Shown: piece after piece, positions 44,909 through 52,946 of the stretch
How positions within the stretch are numbered: the first letter of the stretch is position 1
How the letters are laid out: the number at the start of each line of letters is the position of its first letter
IMG/VR virus record: IMGVR_UViG_2529292913_000008
DNA from: a virus
Lineage: Duplodnaviria; Heunggongvirae; Uroviricota; Caudoviricetes
Direction: 5' to 3' (one strand)
DNA length: 64,000 nt
Made by a program: the position numbers and the translations under genes
The notes under the pieces: generated by a model
What the model was told of the DNA's origin: nothing
The model's database searches: none
Seen by the model: only the letters and a program-made list of their open reading frames with translations

Positions 44909-46247
44909 CATAAGCGCTAACTTAAGGGTTGAACCATCTGAAGAATGCGACGCCTCGGTGCCTCGTTAAGACGATGCCTCGCGTTCTTCAATTGCGTTTT
45001 GTAGGCTGTCAGGGATACTGTCCCACGAATGGCCACCTGTAAGCTCCAGATGACCATTTTTGTTATTCTCCACAACGAGTTAGTTCTTCTTTTCGGATCC
45101 GGCACTTCTGGGGGGGAAATCCAGCGATGGCTGGATTATGTCGTCAATTAAAAATGCGGCGAGTAGATTAGCAAATATCCACGCTTTCGCGAGTTCAGGT
45201 TCCTTTGCACGCAAAGCATCCAGGTGCAGCAAACTTTTGAGCCGCTTAAAAGCCAGTTCAATTTGCCATCGCAGACGGTAACAATCAGCCACTTGCTCTG
45301 CTGAATATTCATCTTCCGGTAATGATGTTAGCAATAGCACATGGCCCGCTGCTTCCAGCGTTTCCGCCTGAACTACTCGTCCTTTTCGACGATTCTCGCT
45401 GAGCAGTCGGGTTTTACTGATTAATGCTTTTTCGGGAGGAAGTGATACGGCAATGAGACGTGCCGGAAAGGGAGCTCCGGCTTTTTTATTACCTGAATTG
45501 CCTATCATTACAGTGGTTTCACCGTTCTTACCGCAATCCAGCCCGCGCAGAAAACCCATCATGTCAAAGCGCATTCCTTCTGCAGTTAACCAGCGCAATC
45601 CTCGCCAGTGAACCCGGACGATATAATCAGCTTCTCCAAAAGCAAGTGAGCGGATACATTCGGGACGCGAACCGAATCCCCGGTCAGCAATGCGTATCTC
45701 GTCTGCCGTTTGCGCAAATCGGTCCAGCCGTTCAGCGTCTCTGCTGTCGGTTAGCTCAAAATCAGTGAACTGACAGGTATGAGGATCATATCCCATATGT
45801 AGTCGCCATTCAGCGCTGCCGCCCCCGGGCGCACTGATTGCTGTTCCATCGACAAGACGCAATCTCTTTCCGCTTGTACAACCCGTAACTGCGGCGCGTA
45901 CAGCAAGTGTTTGTGCGGCAAGTATGCCAAACCAGTCGGCGGCATTCCGCAGCCGCTTCAGGAGAGCCACGTCAGATAATGTTGCAACGTCATGGAGCTG
46001 AGCCCATGCAGTGACTTCACGTAATGACATCCCCCCGGGGCCGTAAGCCAGCCCCAGACGTAGCAGAGTTGCAGCATCACGAATTTCGCGGCGGCGGGTT
46101 AGAGCCCCGGCATTACGTGCCGAAGTATCCAGTTCTTCGGGCTTACCAATATGGGCCAGAATTGCTGACCAGTTATCGTGAGAGTAATTCATCGGCACGT
46201 TAAATCATATCAGGCGTAATACCACAACCCTTAAGTTAGCGCTTATG
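44909..46247 (-). mobile_element. IS186 (IS4 family), complete 1339 bp, 10 bp target duplication GGATCTCTCC
   Basis: terminal inverted repeats CATAAGCGCTAACTTAAGGGTTG at both ends; duplication at 44899-44908 and 46248-46257; reconstructed target GGGGATCTCTCCCC. Confidence 0.92.
45080..46198 (-). CDS. IS186 transposase
   Basis: 372 aa, matches IS186 transposase as recalled (MNYSHDNWSAILAHIGKPEELD...). Confidence 0.92.
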   Translation of the reverse strand: MPMNYSHDNWSAILAHIGKPEELDTSARNAGALTRRREIRDAATLLRLGLAYGPGGMSLREVTAWAQLHDVATLSDVALLKRLRNAADWFGILAAQTLAVRAAVTGCTSGKRLRLVDGTAISAPGGGSAEWRLHMGYDPHTCQFTDFELTDSRDAERLDRFAQTADEIRIADRGFGSRPECIRSLAFGEADYIVRVHWRGLRWLTAEGMRFDMMGFLRGLDCGKNGETTVMIGNSGNKKAGAPFPARLIAVSLPPEKALISKTRLLSENRRKGRVVQAETLEAAGHVLLLTSLPEDEYSAEQVADCYRLRWQIELAFKRLKSLLHLDALRAKEPELAKAWIFANLLAAFLIDDIIQPSLDFPPRSAGSEKKN

Positions 46248-46902: not shown

Positions 46903-47172
46903 TCACCCTCTGAATCCTGCCGGTATACCCCATTGTTCGTTATCTTTATTTTTGGCTAAAACCGCATTAAGAGCTTCGTTTACCGTCATGCAATGCGGCA
47001 GATTATCGAAGTTTGATATCCCGCCAATATCAGGAGAACGCTTGTCCTTCAGGTAAGCATATTTCCGCGCTGCCGCCTCTACTTTCTGCTTGAACTCATG
47101 TTTTTGAGCGCGTTTTTTGGATAACCGCAGATTGTCAGCCTTTGCTTTTGCCTCAGCGATCCATGAAGTCAA
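46903..47172 (-). CDS. hypothetical basic protein (89 aa)
   Basis: ORF overlapping the stop of the upstream gene. Confidence 0.45.
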   Translation of the reverse strand: MTSWIAEAKAKADNLRLSKKRAQKHEFKQKVEAAARKYAYLKDKRSPDIGGISNFDNLPHCMTVNEALNAVLAKNKDNEQWGIPAGFRG

Positions 47173-47747
47173 TTTTTTGAGTCTGGTCGTTCCGGCACCG
47201 CCGGAAACTGATCTTTTTGTTTTTTAACTTGTGACTTCTTATTCTTTATTGCCACGTCATCCTGACAGGGGGAGGGGGTATCATTTTGACATGGGGGTGT
47301 GGATAAAAAATTAAATAAAGCCAATGTCTTAGCGAGAACAGCTTTAACCTTGGTTGCCGCTGAAGAGATCTTTAATTTGCTTTCAATCAGCGCATTTTTG
47401 GCTTGTTGTGCGAAGGCCAAAAAGGATGGTGTAAACCGGTACAGGTTAGCGCGACGTTCACGGTGATCGCCGATAACAATCTCTACAGACAGGATTCCTT
47501 TGTTTACAGCTTCACGGAATGCACGAACGACGGTTGATTGGCTATAACCAGTTTCTGCCGCGATCAGGCGGTGAGGCTTGTGAATGAAGTATTCACTGGT
47601 TGTTGCCGCGAGATTTGCACATTGCGACAAGATATGCCCGGCGCTACGGGATAGACCGGAGTGTGTTACAAAGCAGGCCAATTCATAGCCAGAAAAAGTA
47701 AAATCGCTCATCGTTATACAGCTCAGGAAAGTGACTTTAGCCAGCAT
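47169..47747 (-). CDS. winged-helix DNA-binding protein, possible RepL-like lytic replication protein
   Basis: 192 aa with HTH-like GYSQSTVVRAFREAVNKGIL; real start may be internal (MSDFTF); assignment by position after the KilA-N gene. Confidence 0.45.
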   Translation of the reverse strand: MLAKVTFLSCITMSDFTFSGYELACFVTHSGLSRSAGHILSQCANLAATTSEYFIHKPHRLIAAETGYSQSTVVRAFREAVNKGILSVEIVIGDHRERRANLYRFTPSFLAFAQQAKNALIESKLKISSAATKVKAVLAKTLALFNFLSTPPCQNDTPSPCQDDVAIKNKKSQVKKQKDQFPAVPERPDSKN

Positions 47748-49784: not shown

Positions 49785-50002
49785 AAAACCCCCTGAACGT
49801 CGGCAGAGAAGGGGAGGTTCCAGTAACTAAGTGAATTGCGCGAGTTAGTTGAAAAACGGGCAGTAAAAATGCAGGGGCCATCAGGCAATTGAGAGCGTGC
49901 TTCGTCTTCTGTTGCTGCGATGACGAAGTGATAGTGGTGTTTTTTGCAGGAATAGAAACGCCAGATGAATTCTTGGCGTGCGCAAGGATTGGCATTAACC
50001 AT
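49781..50002 (-). CDS. icd: Icd-like cell-division inhibitor
   Basis: 73 aa with QEFIWRF...HFVIAATEDEARSQL pattern recalled for Icd-like proteins; GAGG at 8 nt. Confidence 0.5.
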   Translation of the reverse strand: MVNANPCARQEFIWRFYSCKKHHYHFVIAATEDEARSQLPDGPCIFTARFSTNSRNSLSYWNLPFSADVQGVL

Positions 50003-50029
50003 AGTTACGGCCTCGTAAGTTGATAAACA

Positions 50030-50241
50030 ACCTGCGACCCGCTGCTAAACAGGTGGCAGGACGTGACGGGGTTAGCAGACTGGCACTTACGAAACCAGCA
50101 GGCCGAAGCCTCCCCATCACGCCCCACCATAATTCGGGCGTAACGTGGTTTACGGACACAAAAATACCGCAATATCGGAAATCTGCGGTTGTCCGCGTAA
50201 GTATTCAGGCTGCTAAACCCGGTCGCAGAATTTGCTACGAC
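50030..50241 (-). ncRNA. immI-like leader; candidate c4-like antisense regulatory RNA region
   Basis: minus-strand GGGUUUAGCAGC twice (plus 50209-50220 and 50039-50050) and a near-complementary GUCUGCUAACCCC (plus 50069-50081). Confidence 0.35.
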
Positions 50242-50247
50242 GGCGAA

Positions 50248-50276
50248 ACTATAAGCCTGAACGATTAAAAGGTCAA
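50248..50276 (-). promoter_or_regulatory. sigma70-type promoter for the immI-like operon (TTGACC-17-TATAGT)
   Basis: minus-strand -35 at plus 50271-50276 and -10 at 50248-50253. Confidence 0.55.
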
Positions 50277-50313
50277 TATGATGCAAAAAGATAGCATTCG
50301 CGACTTAAAAATA

Positions 50314-50330
50314 CAAATTTATTAGAGCAG
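50314..50330 (-). promoter_or_regulatory. operator-like box (15/17) upstream of the immI-like promoter
   Basis: minus-strand reading CTGCTCTAATAAATTTG. Confidence 0.5.
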
Positions 50331-50612
50331 ATTAGTGTCGTGCAATAGATATATTATTTGTGATGAAAAATAATGCAGATGGATATTGTAACTTTAAGAT
50401 GGATATCAATAGTCGATACATAAATTAAGTTAGCAATAAACTATTAACTTAAGAAATAATGCAGATGGTGAACTTGTCTCTGACTTTTCAGCTATACACA
50501 ATAAGTTAGGGATAGCTTATAAAAAGTTGATTAATTGATATAAGTCAATGGGAGTATTCTTGTTTACTTTCCGTTCTTGTGGTAACTTCTCGCCGGTTTT
50601 TGTTTTTCTGGG

Positions 50613-51134
50613 ATGATTCTTATGTCTAAAAAGTATACTTTATGCGCTCTTGTTGTATCTGCAATTCTTCTTTCTGGGTGTCAATCTAGCGGTGCTGATT
50701 ATGCTGCCGATGTTTATGATACCGCTCAATTGAATTCGAAGCAGGAAACAAAGACAGTCAATATTATCTCTGTGCTTCCAGCTAAAGTGAAAGTTGATAA
50801 TAAAGCTAATAAAGAAGCGGCACAGACATTTGGTGCGGTACTGGGAGCTGTTGCTGGGGGCGTTGCCGGTTATAATGTTAAAGGCACATCGACACTGGGT
50901 GCTGTAGCTGGCGGTACTGGTGGTGCGGCTCTTGGTGCAGCGGCTGGTTCTTTGGTTAGTGATAAAACAATTGTTGAAGGTGTTTCACTGACTTATAAAG
51001 AAGGAACTAAGGTGTTCACTTCAACTCAAGTTGGTAAAGCATGCCAGTTTACAACGGGGCTTGCTGTGCTTATTTCAACTAAAGATAATGAAACTCGAAT
51101 TCAGCCAAATGCTACTTGTCCAGAAAAGAAATAA
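50613..51134 (+). CDS. lipoprotein with Gly-zipper region
   Basis: lipobox LLSGC; GAVAGGxGG repeats; AT-rich gene. Confidence 0.6.
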   Translation: MILMSKKYTLCALVVSAILLSGCQSSGADYAADVYDTAQLNSKQETKTVNIISVLPAKVKVDNKANKEAAQTFGAVLGAVAGGVAGYNVKGTSTLGAVAGGTGGAALGAAAGSLVSDKTIVEGVSLTYKEGTKVFTSTQVGKACQFTTGLAVLISTKDNETRIQPNATCPEKK

Positions 51135-51137
51135 TTT

Positions 51138-51677
51138 ATGAATAAAATTATTTTATTTCTAATCTTTTCTACGTTTAGTGTAGGCACTGCCTTGGCTAAC
51201 TCGTTGCAAAGTCAAATTGCTGCTATTGCTCAAGCGGAAAATGAAGGGCGAGCTAAAGAGCAGCAAGCTGAGGATGCCAGAAAAGAACTTATTCGCCAAC
51301 AAGCACAAGCTGAACGTATTAGAAGAGAAAAAGCAGCATCTGCCGCTGCTGCACGCGAAAAACAGCGTGTTGCTGCAGAAAATGAACGTAGAGCGAAACG
51401 AGAAGCCGAGCTAGCAAATGACAAGAAGCGAGATCAAGCTTATGAGGATGAGCTTCGCAAGCTGCAACTCGAAAGCATGAAACTCGAACTGCAAGCAAAA
51501 GCGGCTCGTGTCCAGCGAGAAAACGATTTTATAGAGCAGGAGTTGAAGGAGAGAGCAGCTAAGACAGATGTAATTCAGTCTGAGGCTGATGCAAATAGAA
51601 ATATTTCTACAGGAAGTAAAGATTTACTGCAAAGCGAAGGAAAAGCTAGAGAGAAGAAAGCTAGCAGTTGGTGGTAG
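51138..51677 (+). CDS. secreted coiled-coil protein
   Basis: N-terminal signal peptide; E/R/K/A-rich heptad-like body. Confidence 0.6.
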   Translation: MNKIILFLIFSTFSVGTALANSLQSQIAAIAQAENEGRAKEQQAEDARKELIRQQAQAERIRREKAASAAAAREKQRVAAENERRAKREAELANDKKRDQAYEDELRKLQLESMKLELQAKAARVQRENDFIEQELKERAAKTDVIQSEADANRNISTGSKDLLQSEGKAREKKASSWW

Positions 51678-51733
51678 TAATCACTACGATTGCGAGCATA
51701 CTGTCACAAATGACAACTCGTAGAATCTGTTAA

Positions 51734-52324
<591 letters not shown>

Positions 52325-52334
52325 GAGGGCTGAT

Positions 52335-52946
52335 ATGGGGTTTAATGTTGCTTCAGTAAAGTCTTATGTATCTTCGGCATTAACGACGACATTATTTGGC
52401 TCCGGCGTTGGTGAACGGGAAGTTGGTAAGCTGACGTCAATCATCATGAACAAAATGCTGTTCGCGCAAGGATGGCAGTTCTCTGTCGAAGTTGATGGAC
52501 TGGAGGGGGCAGACTTCTTTGCCAAAGATATTACCTACCACGATTACAGCATCGAATATGAAACGATTAAAATCGGCGGAGGGAATATCCTTCAACCAAC
52601 GGAGCGTTCGCCTGGGCAGATAACAATGATGGTCAGGGATACCGTTGATGGCCTCGTTTTGGACTGGTTTAAGACGGCAAAAAGTCGGGTGATCAATCCG
52701 GACGGTACCGGGAATATACCGTCTAAATATTTGCTCAATGTGCGTATTTATCGGTTGCTGTCTTCCGGCTTAACCAAACTGGAAAATGAGATGACGGTAT
52801 TCCCGGTCACTACCGGCGATGTCACCTATGCGCGAGATCAGGTTACTGAATTTAAGTCATTCCCAATGACCTTCGCATTGCACAGCACGTTTAACCAATC
52901 CTCAAGTTCTTTGGCTTCCCTTCTGGGCTTTAGCTTTTCTCTTTGA
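52335..52946 (+). CDS. hypothetical phage tail protein (possibly tube)
   Basis: 203 aa ORF; position only. Confidence 0.45.
   Translation: MGFNVASVKSYVSSALTTTLFGSGVGEREVGKLTSIIMNKMLFAQGWQFSVEVDGLEGADFFAKDITYHDYSIEYETIKIGGGNILQPTERSPGQITMMVRDTVDGLVLDWFKTAKSRVINPDGTGNIPSKYLLNVRIYRLLSSGLTKLENEMTVFPVTTGDVTYARDQVTEFKSFPMTFALHSTFNQSSSSLASLLGFSFSL

What the first reader, a model, noticed from the sequence alone, without database searches (positions are those of the whole stretch)
50613..51677. AT-rich lipoprotein and secreted coiled-coil gene pair diverging from the immunity module
Two envelope-targeted proteins are encoded in markedly AT-rich DNA immediately beside the immI-like promoter, on the opposite strand. 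This position and targeting fit a superinfection-exclusion or surface-modification function, and the composition suggests separate acquisition.
Basis: inference. Interest (0 to 1): 0.4.

Follow-up and report, generated by a model that had tools for sequence, protein, structure and literature searches.

The report
Phage-borne yfgH–yfgI envelope gene pair
These two genes are a phage P7-type copy of the bacterial yfgH–yfgI outer-membrane operon, sitting where phage P1 keeps its sim "superimmunity" genes; the pair is already annotated in P7, but what it does for the phage has never been tested.

Summary
50613-51134 encodes a lipoprotein (lipobox LSGC) and 51138-51677 a Sec-exported, highly charged protein predicted as one long helix. 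They diverge from the immI operon (C4 RNA, C1 operator) in a 1376-nt cassette whose 40% GC is in the lowest 1% of the window. The window is a P1/P7-family phage-plasmid, and the pair is identical in protein sequence to P7 Upf50.5/Upf50.0. The cassette exactly replaces P1 simABC, between the C1 operator Op(c4) and the late promoter LPsit. The proteins are not related to Sim, Cor or Llp. They are diverged mobile copies (67% and 47% identity) of the core E. coli operon yfgH-yfgI. YfgH is a SlyB-like glycine-zipper outer-membrane lipoprotein that stabilises the outer membrane; YfgI belongs to DUF5384. Related pairs under strong purifying selection (dN/dS 0.03-0.08) occupy the same slot in other P1-like elements, sit beside tail-fibre genes of P2-like prophages, and occur on other ~100-kb plasmid-like elements. 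About 27% of P1-like plasmids in PLSDB carry this cassette. My best reading is a lysogenic-conversion operon that remodels or reinforces the host outer membrane. A Sim-like exclusion role is plausible from position only and is untested. It is a new member of a known kind, of modest interest.

The parts
50049..50134 (-). C4 antisense RNA of the immI operon (context; c4-icd-ant runs leftwards from here)
   Evidence: Rfam RF01695, 70.8 bits against a gathering score of 45. The P7 and P1 records annotate c4 at the equivalent position.
50248..50276 (-). Sigma-70 promoter of the c4-icd-ant operon (equivalent to P1 promoter P1c4)
   Evidence: TTGACC-17-TATAGT, 10 of 12 matches. It corresponds to the annotated P1c4 promoter in the P1 record.
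50315..50331 (-). C1 repressor operator Op(c4). The left boundary of the cassette lies in its outermost two bases (50329/50330).
   Evidence: TCTGCTCTAATAAATTT, 2 mismatches to the operator consensus; 10 such sites in the window against 0.4 expected. Annotated as Op(c4) in P7. Homology with P1 ends here.
50330..50612 (+). Cassette-specific AT-rich upstream region (about 30% GC), presumed to hold the pair's own promoter and regulatory sites
   Evidence: Composition. Absent from P1 and present in P7. The scan found no strong sigma-70 consensus on the + strand, only a weak TAGATA-17-AATAAT at 50346-50374. A possible extended -10, TGaTATAAG at 50536-50544, lies inside the palindrome at 50534-50549; this is inference from reading the sequence.
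50368..50382 (+). Direct repeat copy 1, AAATAATGCAGATGG (function unknown)
   Evidence: two perfect copies in the window against 0.2 expected.
50454..50468 (+). Direct repeat copy 2, AAATAATGCAGATGG, 86 nt from copy 1
   Evidence: Not found upstream of any other allele or of chromosomal yfgH.
50613..51134 (+). yfgH-like outer-membrane lipoprotein (P7 upf50.5): signal peptide plus lipobox, two-helix glycine-zipper hairpin (about residues 64-112) and a small beta domain
   Evidence: 100% identical in protein sequence to P7 Upf50.5. 67% identical to E. coli K-12 YfgH, E 6e-73. Lipobox and GxxxG/A runs. The AlphaFold secondary structure matches this layout, and the top Foldseek hit is SlyB 7ojf_A, E 3.9e-6.
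51138..51677 (+). yfgI-like periplasmic protein (P7 upf50.0, DUF5384): Sec signal peptide, then about 155 residues predicted as a single helix
   Evidence: Pfam DUF5384, E 3e-43, 147.8 bits against a cut-off of 25. 47% identical to K-12 YfgI, E 3e-45. AlphaFold pLDDT 87.7, helix 3-178.
51706..51757 (+). The conserved P1 backbone resumes here (right boundary at 51705/51706). It carries late promoter LPsit (-22 region about 51708-51715, -10 TAGAAT at 51721-51726) and a strong hairpin at 51717-51751, just before pmgC (51758-).
   Evidence: Alignment with P1 and P7. LPsit position transferred from the P7 annotation. Hairpin -32.3 kcal/mol, z = -5.4.

Best explanation
The pair is the P7-type allele of the variable cargo slot of P1-family phage-plasmids, the slot that carries simABC in P1. 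It is a mobile-element copy of the enterobacterial yfgH-yfgI operon.

Proposed mechanism:
- The lipoprotein is exported, lipidated and sorted to the outer membrane. There its two glycine-zipper helices insert as a hairpin.
- Like SlyB, and as modelled for YfgH, it oligomerises into rings that enclose patches of lipid and outer-membrane proteins.
- The partner is a periplasmic rod of about 155 residues. It is co-translated from the same transcript and probably works with the lipoprotein.
- The pair lies outside the late operon (LPsit is downstream) and brings its own AT-rich upstream region, so it is most likely expressed from the prophage as a lysogenic-conversion ('moron') operon.
- Its effect is to reinforce or remodel the lysogen's outer membrane, giving tolerance of detergent, bile, chelator or peptide stress. 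Any block to incoming phage would be a secondary or additional effect.

Shown: gene structure, targeting signals, family membership, slot equivalence with sim, cassette boundaries, purifying selection, and recurrence on other temperate elements.

Inferred: outer-membrane location, ring formation, cooperation of the two proteins, expression in the lysogen, and the phenotype.
For: Identity:
- The region is 98-99.5% identical in DNA to P7, SJ46, RCS47 and P1-like records, and the two proteins are identical to P7 Upf50.5 and Upf50.0.

Homology to yfgH-yfgI:
- The DNA is about 69% identical to yfgH-yfgI, which is present in 5420 of 5426 complete E. coli genomes.
- The proteins are 67% and 47% identical to K-12 YfgH and YfgI, with the same lengths and gene order.
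- DUF5384 matches at 147.8 bits.
- The top structural match is SlyB, E 3.9e-6.

Published function of the homologue (bioRxiv 10.64898/2025.12.22.696046):
- YfgH stabilises the outer membrane.
- It co-purifies with BamA, LptD, OmpF/C/A, LamB and TonB-dependent receptors.
- It protects when overexpressed.

Little sign of a changed activity:
- Only 5 positions in the mature lipoprotein separate the mobile clade from the other homologues.
- Alleles in the same slot have dN/dS of 0.03-0.08 at near-saturated dS. That indicates a conserved, constrained activity rather than an arms race.

The slot is a cargo site:
- The breakpoints lie at the edge of Op(c4) and 28 nt after the second stop codon, upstream of LPsit.
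- P1 has simABC there. Phage Ro157c2YLVW has two other secreted proteins there.
- L013 and L017 hold further alleles of the pair plus extra cargo genes.

Recurrent cargo elsewhere:
- The pair lies next to the tail-fibre modules of related P2-like prophages integrated at two different chromosomal sites, and in a Salmonella prophage.
- It also lies on two different ~100-kb elements carrying Rep3, ParA and primase genes.
Against: - No expression data exist, and no convincing sigma-70 promoter was found on the + strand.
- E. coli hosts already carry chromosomal yfgHI, so a simple 'extra copy' benefit is not obvious. That redundancy favours a specialised role such as exclusion.
- The only function ever assigned to this slot is superimmunity.
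- The lipoprotein model is of low confidence (pLDDT 55.6).
- Ring formation is so far only modelled even for YfgH itself.
- The role of YfgI is unknown in any organism.
Confidence: 0.5

Rival explanations
1. Dedicated superinfection exclusion, as a functional analogue of Sim. The phage-encoded YfgH-like rings, with the periplasmic rod, would mask or sequester outer-membrane receptors. Alternatively they would block tail penetration or DNA transit across the envelope, protecting the lysogen from P1-family or other phages.
For: - It occupies the same slot and orientation as simABC. All cassettes seen in that slot encode exported proteins.
- In P2-like prophages the pair lies next to the tail-fibre genes. 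From my own knowledge, that is a typical place for exclusion lipoproteins such as Cor.
- YfgH co-purifies with classic phage receptors: OmpF/C/A, LamB and TonB-dependent transporters.
- The host already has yfgHI, which suggests a specialised role.
- The mobile clade has its own fixed residues in the hairpin turn, G91 and T92.
- There is a precedent: TraT appears to be a chromosomal outer-membrane lipoprotein co-opted by plasmids for exclusion (PMC11733297).
Against: - No homology to Sim. The only Cor match covers just the signal peptide. No PADLOC hit.
- Very strong purifying selection and few clade-specific residues.
- From my own knowledge, P1 adsorbs to the LPS core rather than to an outer-membrane protein.
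- The slot also takes cargo with no obvious envelope role beyond a membrane anchor, such as a DUF559/MTES_1575 protein in L017.
Confidence: 0.3
2. TraT-like role. The lipoprotein would form an outer-membrane oligomer that reduces conjugative DNA entry (surface exclusion) and/or confers serum or complement resistance. It would be a fitness or virulence moron comparable to TraT, or to lambda Bor.
For: - Weak Pfam TraT match: E 7e-5, residues 59-145. Many homologues carry precomputed TraT hits.
- The TraT decamer structures rank 3rd and 4th in Foldseek.
- The element is a plasmid prophage that competes with other plasmids.
Against: - The TraT score of 23.1 bits is below the 31-bit cut-off.
- The Foldseek matches are not significant: E 0.23-0.28 and TM 0.2-0.25.
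- The protein is about 50 residues shorter than TraT (173 against about 225 residues in the solved chains). In TraT, specificity maps to an extracellular ring domain.
- The similarity is probably confined to the glycine-rich helices.
Confidence: 0.08
3. Lytic-cycle function. The pair would hold the outer membrane together until lysis, or otherwise tune lysis timing or virion release. It would be transcribed after induction rather than in the lysogen.
For: - The left end of the cassette abuts the C1 operator, so derepression could open the region.
- The pair lies immediately upstream of the late tail operon.
Against: - It lies upstream of, not within, the LPsit late transcription unit.
- The slot's cargo is dispensable for P1 lytic growth: simA, simB and simC scored non-essential in a genome-wide CRISPRi screen (PMC10695390).
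- Most P1-like elements lack the pair.
Confidence: 0.07
4. Functionless hitch-hiker DNA, captured from a chromosome by aberrant prophage excision and carried passively.
For: - Many E. coli strains have a prophage integrated directly downstream of chromosomal yfgI, which gives an obvious capture route.
Against: - Both ORFs are intact in 168 plasmids at 99% identity or more.
- dN/dS is 0.03-0.08 between old alleles.
- The pair has been retained as a pair on at least three kinds of element.
Confidence: 0.03

Closest known systems
E. coli YfgH / YfgI (chromosomal yfgH-yfgI operon; srgI-srgL in S. Typhi)
   Same: - Same two-gene order, the same protein lengths (172/179 against 173/179 aa) and a short intergenic gap.
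- 67% and 47% protein identity.
- Lipobox, glycine-zipper hairpin and C-terminal beta domain with two conserved Cys.
- DUF5384 partner with a signal peptide.
- AT-rich upstream region, 30.6% GC in K-12.
   Different: - Carried on a phage-plasmid, in the sim slot.
- GC3 of 0.24/0.31 against 0.43/0.49.
- A different upstream region.
- A separate clade with a few fixed differences: K60, G91, T92 and L153 in the lipoprotein, and a C-terminus ending -SSWW instead of -WFN in the partner.
- Regulation is unknown. The Typhi orthologues respond to SdiA, but the E. coli yfgHI reporter did not (PMC11619404).
SlyB (PhoPQ-regulated glycine-zipper outer-membrane lipoprotein; PDB 7ojf/7ojg)
   Same: - Best structural match: Foldseek E 3.9e-6, probability 1.00, TM 0.52-0.62.
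- Same architecture: lipid anchor, helical hairpin and small beta domain.
- SlyB forms rings around outer-membrane proteins and lipid patches; the same is modelled for YfgH.
   Different: - Only 24% identity.
- No detectable sequence match to any PDB chain.
- SlyB has no DUF5384 partner gene (my own knowledge).
- The model used for the comparison is of low confidence.
P1 simABC (superimmunity)
   Same: - Identical genomic slot and orientation, between Op(c4) and LPsit/pmgC.
- Low GC: 33.5% for sim against 40.2% here.
- Exported products.
- The simABC region is listed as one of the eight variable regions of P1-like phage-plasmids (PMC9603915).
   Different: - No sequence similarity.
- Sim proteins are not lipoproteins.
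- A Sim-type phenotype has not been tested for this pair.
TraT (IncF surface-exclusion lipoprotein)
   Same: - An outer-membrane lipoprotein that oligomerises through an alpha-helical membrane domain.
- It appears to be a chromosomal gene repeatedly co-opted by mobile elements (PMC11733297).
- Weak profile similarity over the glycine-rich helices.
   Different: - Below the Pfam threshold, and not significant by fold comparison.
- TraT is larger and has an extracellular ring domain.
- TraT has no partner gene of this type.
Cor (phi80/N15/T1) and Llp (T5) exclusion lipoproteins; lambda Bor and Lom morons
   Same: - Small envelope proteins encoded by prophage accessory genes, often beside tail-fibre genes (my own knowledge).
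- All are lysogenic-conversion style cargo.
   Different: - There is no real homology. The PHROG Cor match has E 0.022 and covers only residues 10-54, the signal peptide and lipobox.
- Those proteins have no glycine zipper and no paired helical partner.

Membership tests
YfgH family (glycine-zipper 2TM outer-membrane lipoprotein, SlyB-like) | Significant full-length sequence similarity to E. coli YfgH | tested here: met
   67% identity over 171 residues with no gaps, E 6e-73. 481 homologues at E <= 1e-10.
YfgH family (glycine-zipper 2TM outer-membrane lipoprotein, SlyB-like) | Lipoprotein signal peptide with a lipobox Cys and no Asp at +2 | tested here: met
   LSGC at residues 20-23, followed by Q. 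Cys23 is invariant in 57 homologues.
YfgH family (glycine-zipper 2TM outer-membrane lipoprotein, SlyB-like) | Two helices with GxxxG/A repeats (Pfam glycine zipper 2TM, PF05433) | tested here: inconclusive
   GxxxG/A runs at residues 74-86 and 96-112, and predicted helices at 64-87 and 94-112. The Pfam PF05433 score is only 18.2 bits against a cut-off of 24.2.
YfgH family (glycine-zipper 2TM outer-membrane lipoprotein, SlyB-like) | SlyB-type fold | tested here: met
   Foldseek top hit is 7ojf_A (SlyB), E 3.9e-6, the only hit at E <= 0.001. Caveat: the model has a mean pLDDT of 55.6.
YfgH family (glycine-zipper 2TM outer-membrane lipoprotein, SlyB-like) | Outer-membrane location, oligomeric rings and stabilisation of the outer membrane under stress | not testable with these tools
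   Needs fractionation, cryo-EM and complementation of a yfgH deletion.
YfgI / DUF5384 | Pfam PF17358 above the gathering score | tested here: met
   147.8 bits against 25, E 3e-43, covering residues 39-179. 47% identity to K-12 YfgI.
YfgI / DUF5384 | Sec signal peptide, and a position immediately downstream of a yfgH-type gene | tested here: met
   The signal peptide was read from the sequence. The two genes were adjacent in every locus examined, with spacers from -4 to 15 nt in the seven loci measured.
P1 Sim (superimmunity) proteins | Sequence homology to SimA, SimB or SimC | tested here: not met
   Best BLASTP E-value is 0.31-0.5, over 17-35 residues.
P1 Sim (superimmunity) proteins | Genomic position between Op(c4) and LPsit, diverging from c4 | tested here: met
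P1 Sim (superimmunity) proteins | Confers immunity to superinfecting P1 when expressed | not testable with these tools
   Needs efficiency-of-plating and DNA-entry assays.
Cor / Llp-type exclusion lipoproteins | Profile match to the family beyond the signal peptide | tested here: not met
   PHROG 1119 (Cor) matches at E 0.022 over residues 10-54 only. No other exclusion family was listed at E <= 0.1.
TraT surface-exclusion lipoprotein | Pfam PF05818 above the gathering score, or a TraT-like fold | tested here: not met
   23.1 bits against a cut-off of 31. Foldseek to 9fs5 and 9fsm gives E 0.23-0.28 and TM 0.21-0.25.
Known anti-phage defence systems (PADLOC) | Any PADLOC model hit | tested here: not met
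   0 families for either protein at E <= 1.

The most novel reading that the evidence does not exclude
Temperate phages of several families (P1-like phage-plasmids, P2-like prophages and other ~100-kb plasmid-like elements, possibly plasmid prophages) have co-opted the host's YfgH/YfgI outer-membrane nanodomain system as a new kind of superinfection or surface exclusion device. Rings of the phage-encoded lipoprotein, braced by the periplasmic rod, would cage receptors or seal the outer membrane against tail penetration and DNA entry. This would be the phage counterpart of the apparent co-option of chromosomal TraT by plasmids, and a functional replacement for Sim.
Probability: 0.25. Interest if true: 0.65.

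Novelty: new member of a known kind. Interest (0 to 1): 0.3.

Why it matters
The pair is carried by about a quarter of the P1-like phage-plasmids in PLSDB (168 of 628 with the flanks) and by 177 of 5426 complete E. coli genomes. Many of these elements spread ESBL and mcr genes. No function has ever been tested for the pair.

This analysis gives its protein family and a concrete molecular model. It also gives a sharp either/or experiment: envelope hardening against Sim-like exclusion.

If the exclusion reading were right, it would link the newly described SlyB/YfgH 'nanodomain' lipoproteins to phage resistance. It would also give YfgI/DUF5384 its first functional handle.

If the conservative reading is right, this is an ordinary lysogenic-conversion moron. 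Even so, it warns against the 'DNA methyltransferase' label now attached to the lipoprotein in RefSeq phage records.

Tried and rejected
- I first recalled, from memory, that the K-12 homologues were YfjS/YfjT of prophage CP4-57. This was wrong: a DNA search shows they are yfgH/yfgI. A YfjT-family protein does occur in the same slot of other P1-like phages.
- The PHROG annotation 'DNA methyltransferase' for the lipoprotein family (phrog_1277) is rejected. The protein is a 173-aa lipoprotein with a glycine zipper and has no methyltransferase domain in Pfam or NCBIfam.
- Sequence search of PDB chains gave nothing for either protein.
- NCBIfam gave only sub-threshold noise.
- Heptad analysis did not support a canonical coiled coil.
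- I looked for a shared regulatory motif upstream of all alleles. The 15-nt repeat is private to this cassette.
- I looked for an SdiA box, because the Typhi orthologues respond to SdiA. The paper gives no motif, and a consensus I recalled from memory does not fit the sequence I inspected.
- The IMG/VR scan looked like 146 'viral' carriers. About 59 of the best 80 turned out to be the chromosomal yfgH at the edge of predicted prophages, so I did not use that count as evidence of phage carriage.
- There is no paralogue of either gene elsewhere in the window, including the P1 mlp/ppfA region.
- The P1 genome paper (PMC523184) is not held in the library.
- Full-text searches for DUF5384 and for upf50.x found nothing relevant.
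Full report
**What is there**

The window is a P1/P7-family phage-plasmid. The stretch 49800-52400 is 99.5% identical to P1-like records, 99.3% to Salmonella phage SJ46 and 98.0% to phage P7.

The two ORFs lie exactly at the reported coordinates on the + strand. Their products are identical in sequence to P7 Upf50.5 and Upf50.0.

- ORF1 (50613-51134) has a lipoprotein signal peptide with lipobox LSGC. It also has two runs of GxxxG/A motifs.
- ORF2 (51138-51677) starts 3 nt after ORF1 and has a Sec signal peptide. Its mature part is 41% charged residues.
- AlphaFold predicts ORF2 as a single uninterrupted helix, pLDDT 87.7.
- I found no significant heptad periodicity in ORF2. It is therefore a long secreted helix, but not demonstrably a coiled coil.

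To the left, on the opposite strand, lies the immI module:

- C4 RNA and its a1b1 target (Rfam);
- a near-consensus promoter at 50276-50248;
- the C1 operator at 50315-50331;
- then icd, ant1/2, kilA and repL.

**Composition and cassette boundaries**

The coding GC is only mildly low: 42.0% and 43.5% against 47.2% for the window. Third-position GC is far lower, 0.24 and 0.31 against 0.47-0.52 in the adjacent tail genes. The 326 nt upstream are 30.4% GC, the 0.3rd percentile. The whole cassette is 40.2% GC, the 1.1st percentile of equal-sized windows.

Alignment with P1 and P7 fixes the boundaries:

- Homology with P1 stops inside the last two bases of the C1 operator (50329/50330).
- It resumes at 51706, which is 28 nt after the ORF2 stop codon and immediately before the -22 and -10 elements of late promoter LPsit. 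A strong hairpin lies there at 51717-51751 (z = -5.4).

The unit is therefore a 1376-nt cassette that brings its own upstream region.

**The slot**

In P1 the same interval, in the same orientation, holds simA-simB-simC (superimmunity).

In phage Ro157c2YLVW it holds a 215-aa and a 158-aa protein. P1 SimA is the N-terminal stub of the former. All of these products have signal peptides.

Other P1-like elements carry diverged alleles of the present pair in this slot:

- L013, from E. albertii, is 88% identical in the lipoprotein. The pair there is nested among remnants of the Ro157-type cassette and comes with three further genes.
- L017 is 83% identical. The pair there is followed by a membrane-anchored DUF559/MTES_1575 protein.

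The literature already lists simABC as one of eight variable, low-GC regions of P1-like phage-plasmids (PMC9603915).

Counts in PLSDB:

- 628 plasmids match the flanks.
- 168 carry this cassette, all at 99% identity or more.
- 298 match the P1 sim cassette at least in part.

Among complete E. coli genomes, 177 of 5426 carry the cassette.

**What the proteins are**

There is no similarity to Sim proteins. The only Cor match covers just the signal peptide. There are no PADLOC hits.

Instead, the DNA is about 69% identical to the chromosomal operon yfgH-yfgI, which is present in 5420 of 5426 E. coli genomes. The proteins are 67% and 47% identical to K-12 YfgH and YfgI, with the same lengths and order. 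ORF2 is a clear DUF5384 member at 147.8 bits.

The lipoprotein model is of low confidence (pLDDT 55.6). Its layout is nonetheless a strand, a helical hairpin and a small beta domain. Its only significant structural match is SlyB, at E 3.9e-6. The TraT decamers follow, but not significantly. The Pfam TraT match is below threshold.

A December 2025 preprint (10.64898/2025.12.22.696046) reports the following for YfgH:

- It is an outer-membrane glycine-zipper lipoprotein that maintains outer-membrane integrity.
- It co-purifies with BamA, LptD, OmpF/C/A, LamB and TonB-dependent receptors.
- It protects when overexpressed.
- It is modelled to form SlyB-like rings.

For YfgI, only a reported DNA-damage sensitivity of mutants is on record. 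The yfgHI orthologues in S. Typhi respond to SdiA, but the E. coli promoter fusion did not (PMC11619404).

**Evolution**

The window allele groups with four other mobile alleles in a distinct clade.

- Only about five positions in the mature lipoprotein are fixed in that clade and rare elsewhere. Two of them are in the hairpin turn.
- The partner ends in -SSWW rather than -WFN.
- Between alleles in the same P1 slot, synonymous sites are near saturation (dS 0.8-1.8), yet dN/dS is 0.03-0.08.

These are old, strongly constrained proteins moved in by recombination. They are neither decaying passengers nor fast-evolving arms-race proteins.

The pair is also cargo elsewhere:

- It lies next to the tail-fibre modules of related P2-like prophages integrated at two different E. 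coli sites, and of a Salmonella prophage.
- It lies on two unrelated ~100-kb elements with Rep3, ParA and primase genes in Salmonella.
- It lies in a transposase-rich island.

Closer chromosomal relatives (74-80% identity) occur in Kluyvera and Pantoea.

**Interpretation**

The molecular identity is secure: this is a mobile yfgH-yfgI operon. The biological role in the phage is not.

I favour, at about 0.5, a lysogenic-conversion operon that builds YfgH/SlyB-type assemblies in the lysogen's outer membrane and so reinforces or remodels it. The reasons are that the proteins have changed little from the chromosomal ones, they are under tight constraint, and the homologue's activity is known.

The main rival, at about 0.3, is a Sim-like or receptor-masking exclusion function. 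In its favour:

- the slot is the sim slot;
- the pair lies next to tail fibres in other prophages;
- E. coli already has its own yfgHI;
- YfgH binds phage-receptor proteins;
- TraT sets a precedent (PMC11733297).

Three minor rivals are a TraT-like role, a lytic-cycle role and a passive passenger; the evidence for and against each is given under rival explanations.

No promoter could be assigned with confidence. Two perfect 15-nt repeats private to this cassette remain unexplained.

**Verdict**

Envelope targeting, separate acquisition and the sim-equivalent position hold. Exclusion is unproven, and there is no homology to known exclusion proteins.
- The pair has been annotated in P7 since that record was deposited, and it belongs to known families.
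- What I did not find stated in the papers searched: it is a mobile allele of yfgHI, it is an alternative to sim, and it is recurrent cargo of temperate phages.
- Novelty is 'new member of a known kind', and interest is modest.

Noticed in passing
window 46903-47747 (-): repL is split into two overlapping ORFs: 47169-47747 (192 aa) and 46903-47172 (89 aa). Together they make the 281 aa of the intact RepL seen in other P1-like elements (L013, L014). This points to a frameshift near 47170, either a pseudogene or a sequencing error. An IS-type transposase ORF lies close by at 45080-46198 (-).
   Followed up: partly
window 50613-51134; RefSeq records NC_050152 (P7), NC_031129 (SJ46), NC_042128 (RCS47): The lipoprotein family is labelled 'DNA methyltransferase' in PHROGs (phrog_1277), and that label appears on the gene in the RefSeq phage records. 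Pfam and NCBIfam show no methyltransferase domain. The label is an annotation error that has been propagated.
   Followed up: yes
window 50368-50382 and 50454-50468 (also AGATGGATAT at 50377 and 50397): Two perfect 15-nt direct repeats, AAATAATGCAGATGG, lie 86 nt apart in the 30%-GC region upstream of the lipoprotein gene. They are the only copies in the window (0.2 expected). They are absent upstream of every other allele and of chromosomal yfgH. They could be a regulator site; this is unexplained.
   Followed up: partly
L004 829-2004 (phage Ro157c2YLVW); L002 2103-2261 (P1 simA); L013 6175-7127: P1 SimA (53 aa) is the N-terminal stub of a 215-aa secreted protein that is intact in Ro157c2YLVW. 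In L013, the counterpart of the neighbouring 158-aa secreted protein carries a Pfam YfjT-family hit. In the E. albertii P1-like element L013 the yfgHI-like pair is nested among remnants of that cassette.
   Followed up: partly
L042-L103 (IMG/VR contigs), e.g. L047 1-4510: In many E. coli strains a prophage (holin, endolysin, Rz-like protein, tailspike) is integrated directly downstream of chromosomal yfgI. Predicted 'viral' contigs therefore end in the host yfgH-yfgI, at 98-100% nt identity to K-12. This inflates counts of viral carriage. It also offers a plausible route for capture of yfgHI by aberrant excision.
   Followed up: partly
L007 (NZ_VPEO01000039.1, labelled Acinetobacter sp., 7.6 kb, about 4x coverage): The contig carries IS1, then a 536-aa AT-rich membrane protein that I judged, by eye only, to be sulfatase/phosphoethanolamine-transferase-like. 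Then come a yfgH-like gene with a broken N-terminus and a truncated yfgI-like gene. It is probably an enterobacterial plasmid fragment or a contaminant.
   Followed up: no
L006 3992-5062 (Kluyvera genomosp. 1): A yfgHI pair 77% identical to the window lipoprotein lies between genes I recognised by eye as ridA (after pyrBI) and mgtA, not at the E. coli yfgG-guaA position. The chromosomal location of the operon therefore varies among genera.
   Followed up: no
PLSDB hits: Salmonella hosts account for 22 of 168 plasmids with the yfgHI-type cassette, but only 10 of 298 with sim-type sequence (Fisher p = 1.7e-4, not corrected for clonality). S. Typhimurium is reported to lack yfgHI orthologues (PMC11619404).
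   Followed up: partly
window 51717-51751: A 12-13-bp stem hairpin (z = -5.4) is conserved in P1 and P7. It overlaps the -10 element of late promoter LPsit and ends 6 nt before the pmgC start codon. It could terminate read-through from the cargo slot, or structure the leader of the late mRNA.
   Followed up: partly
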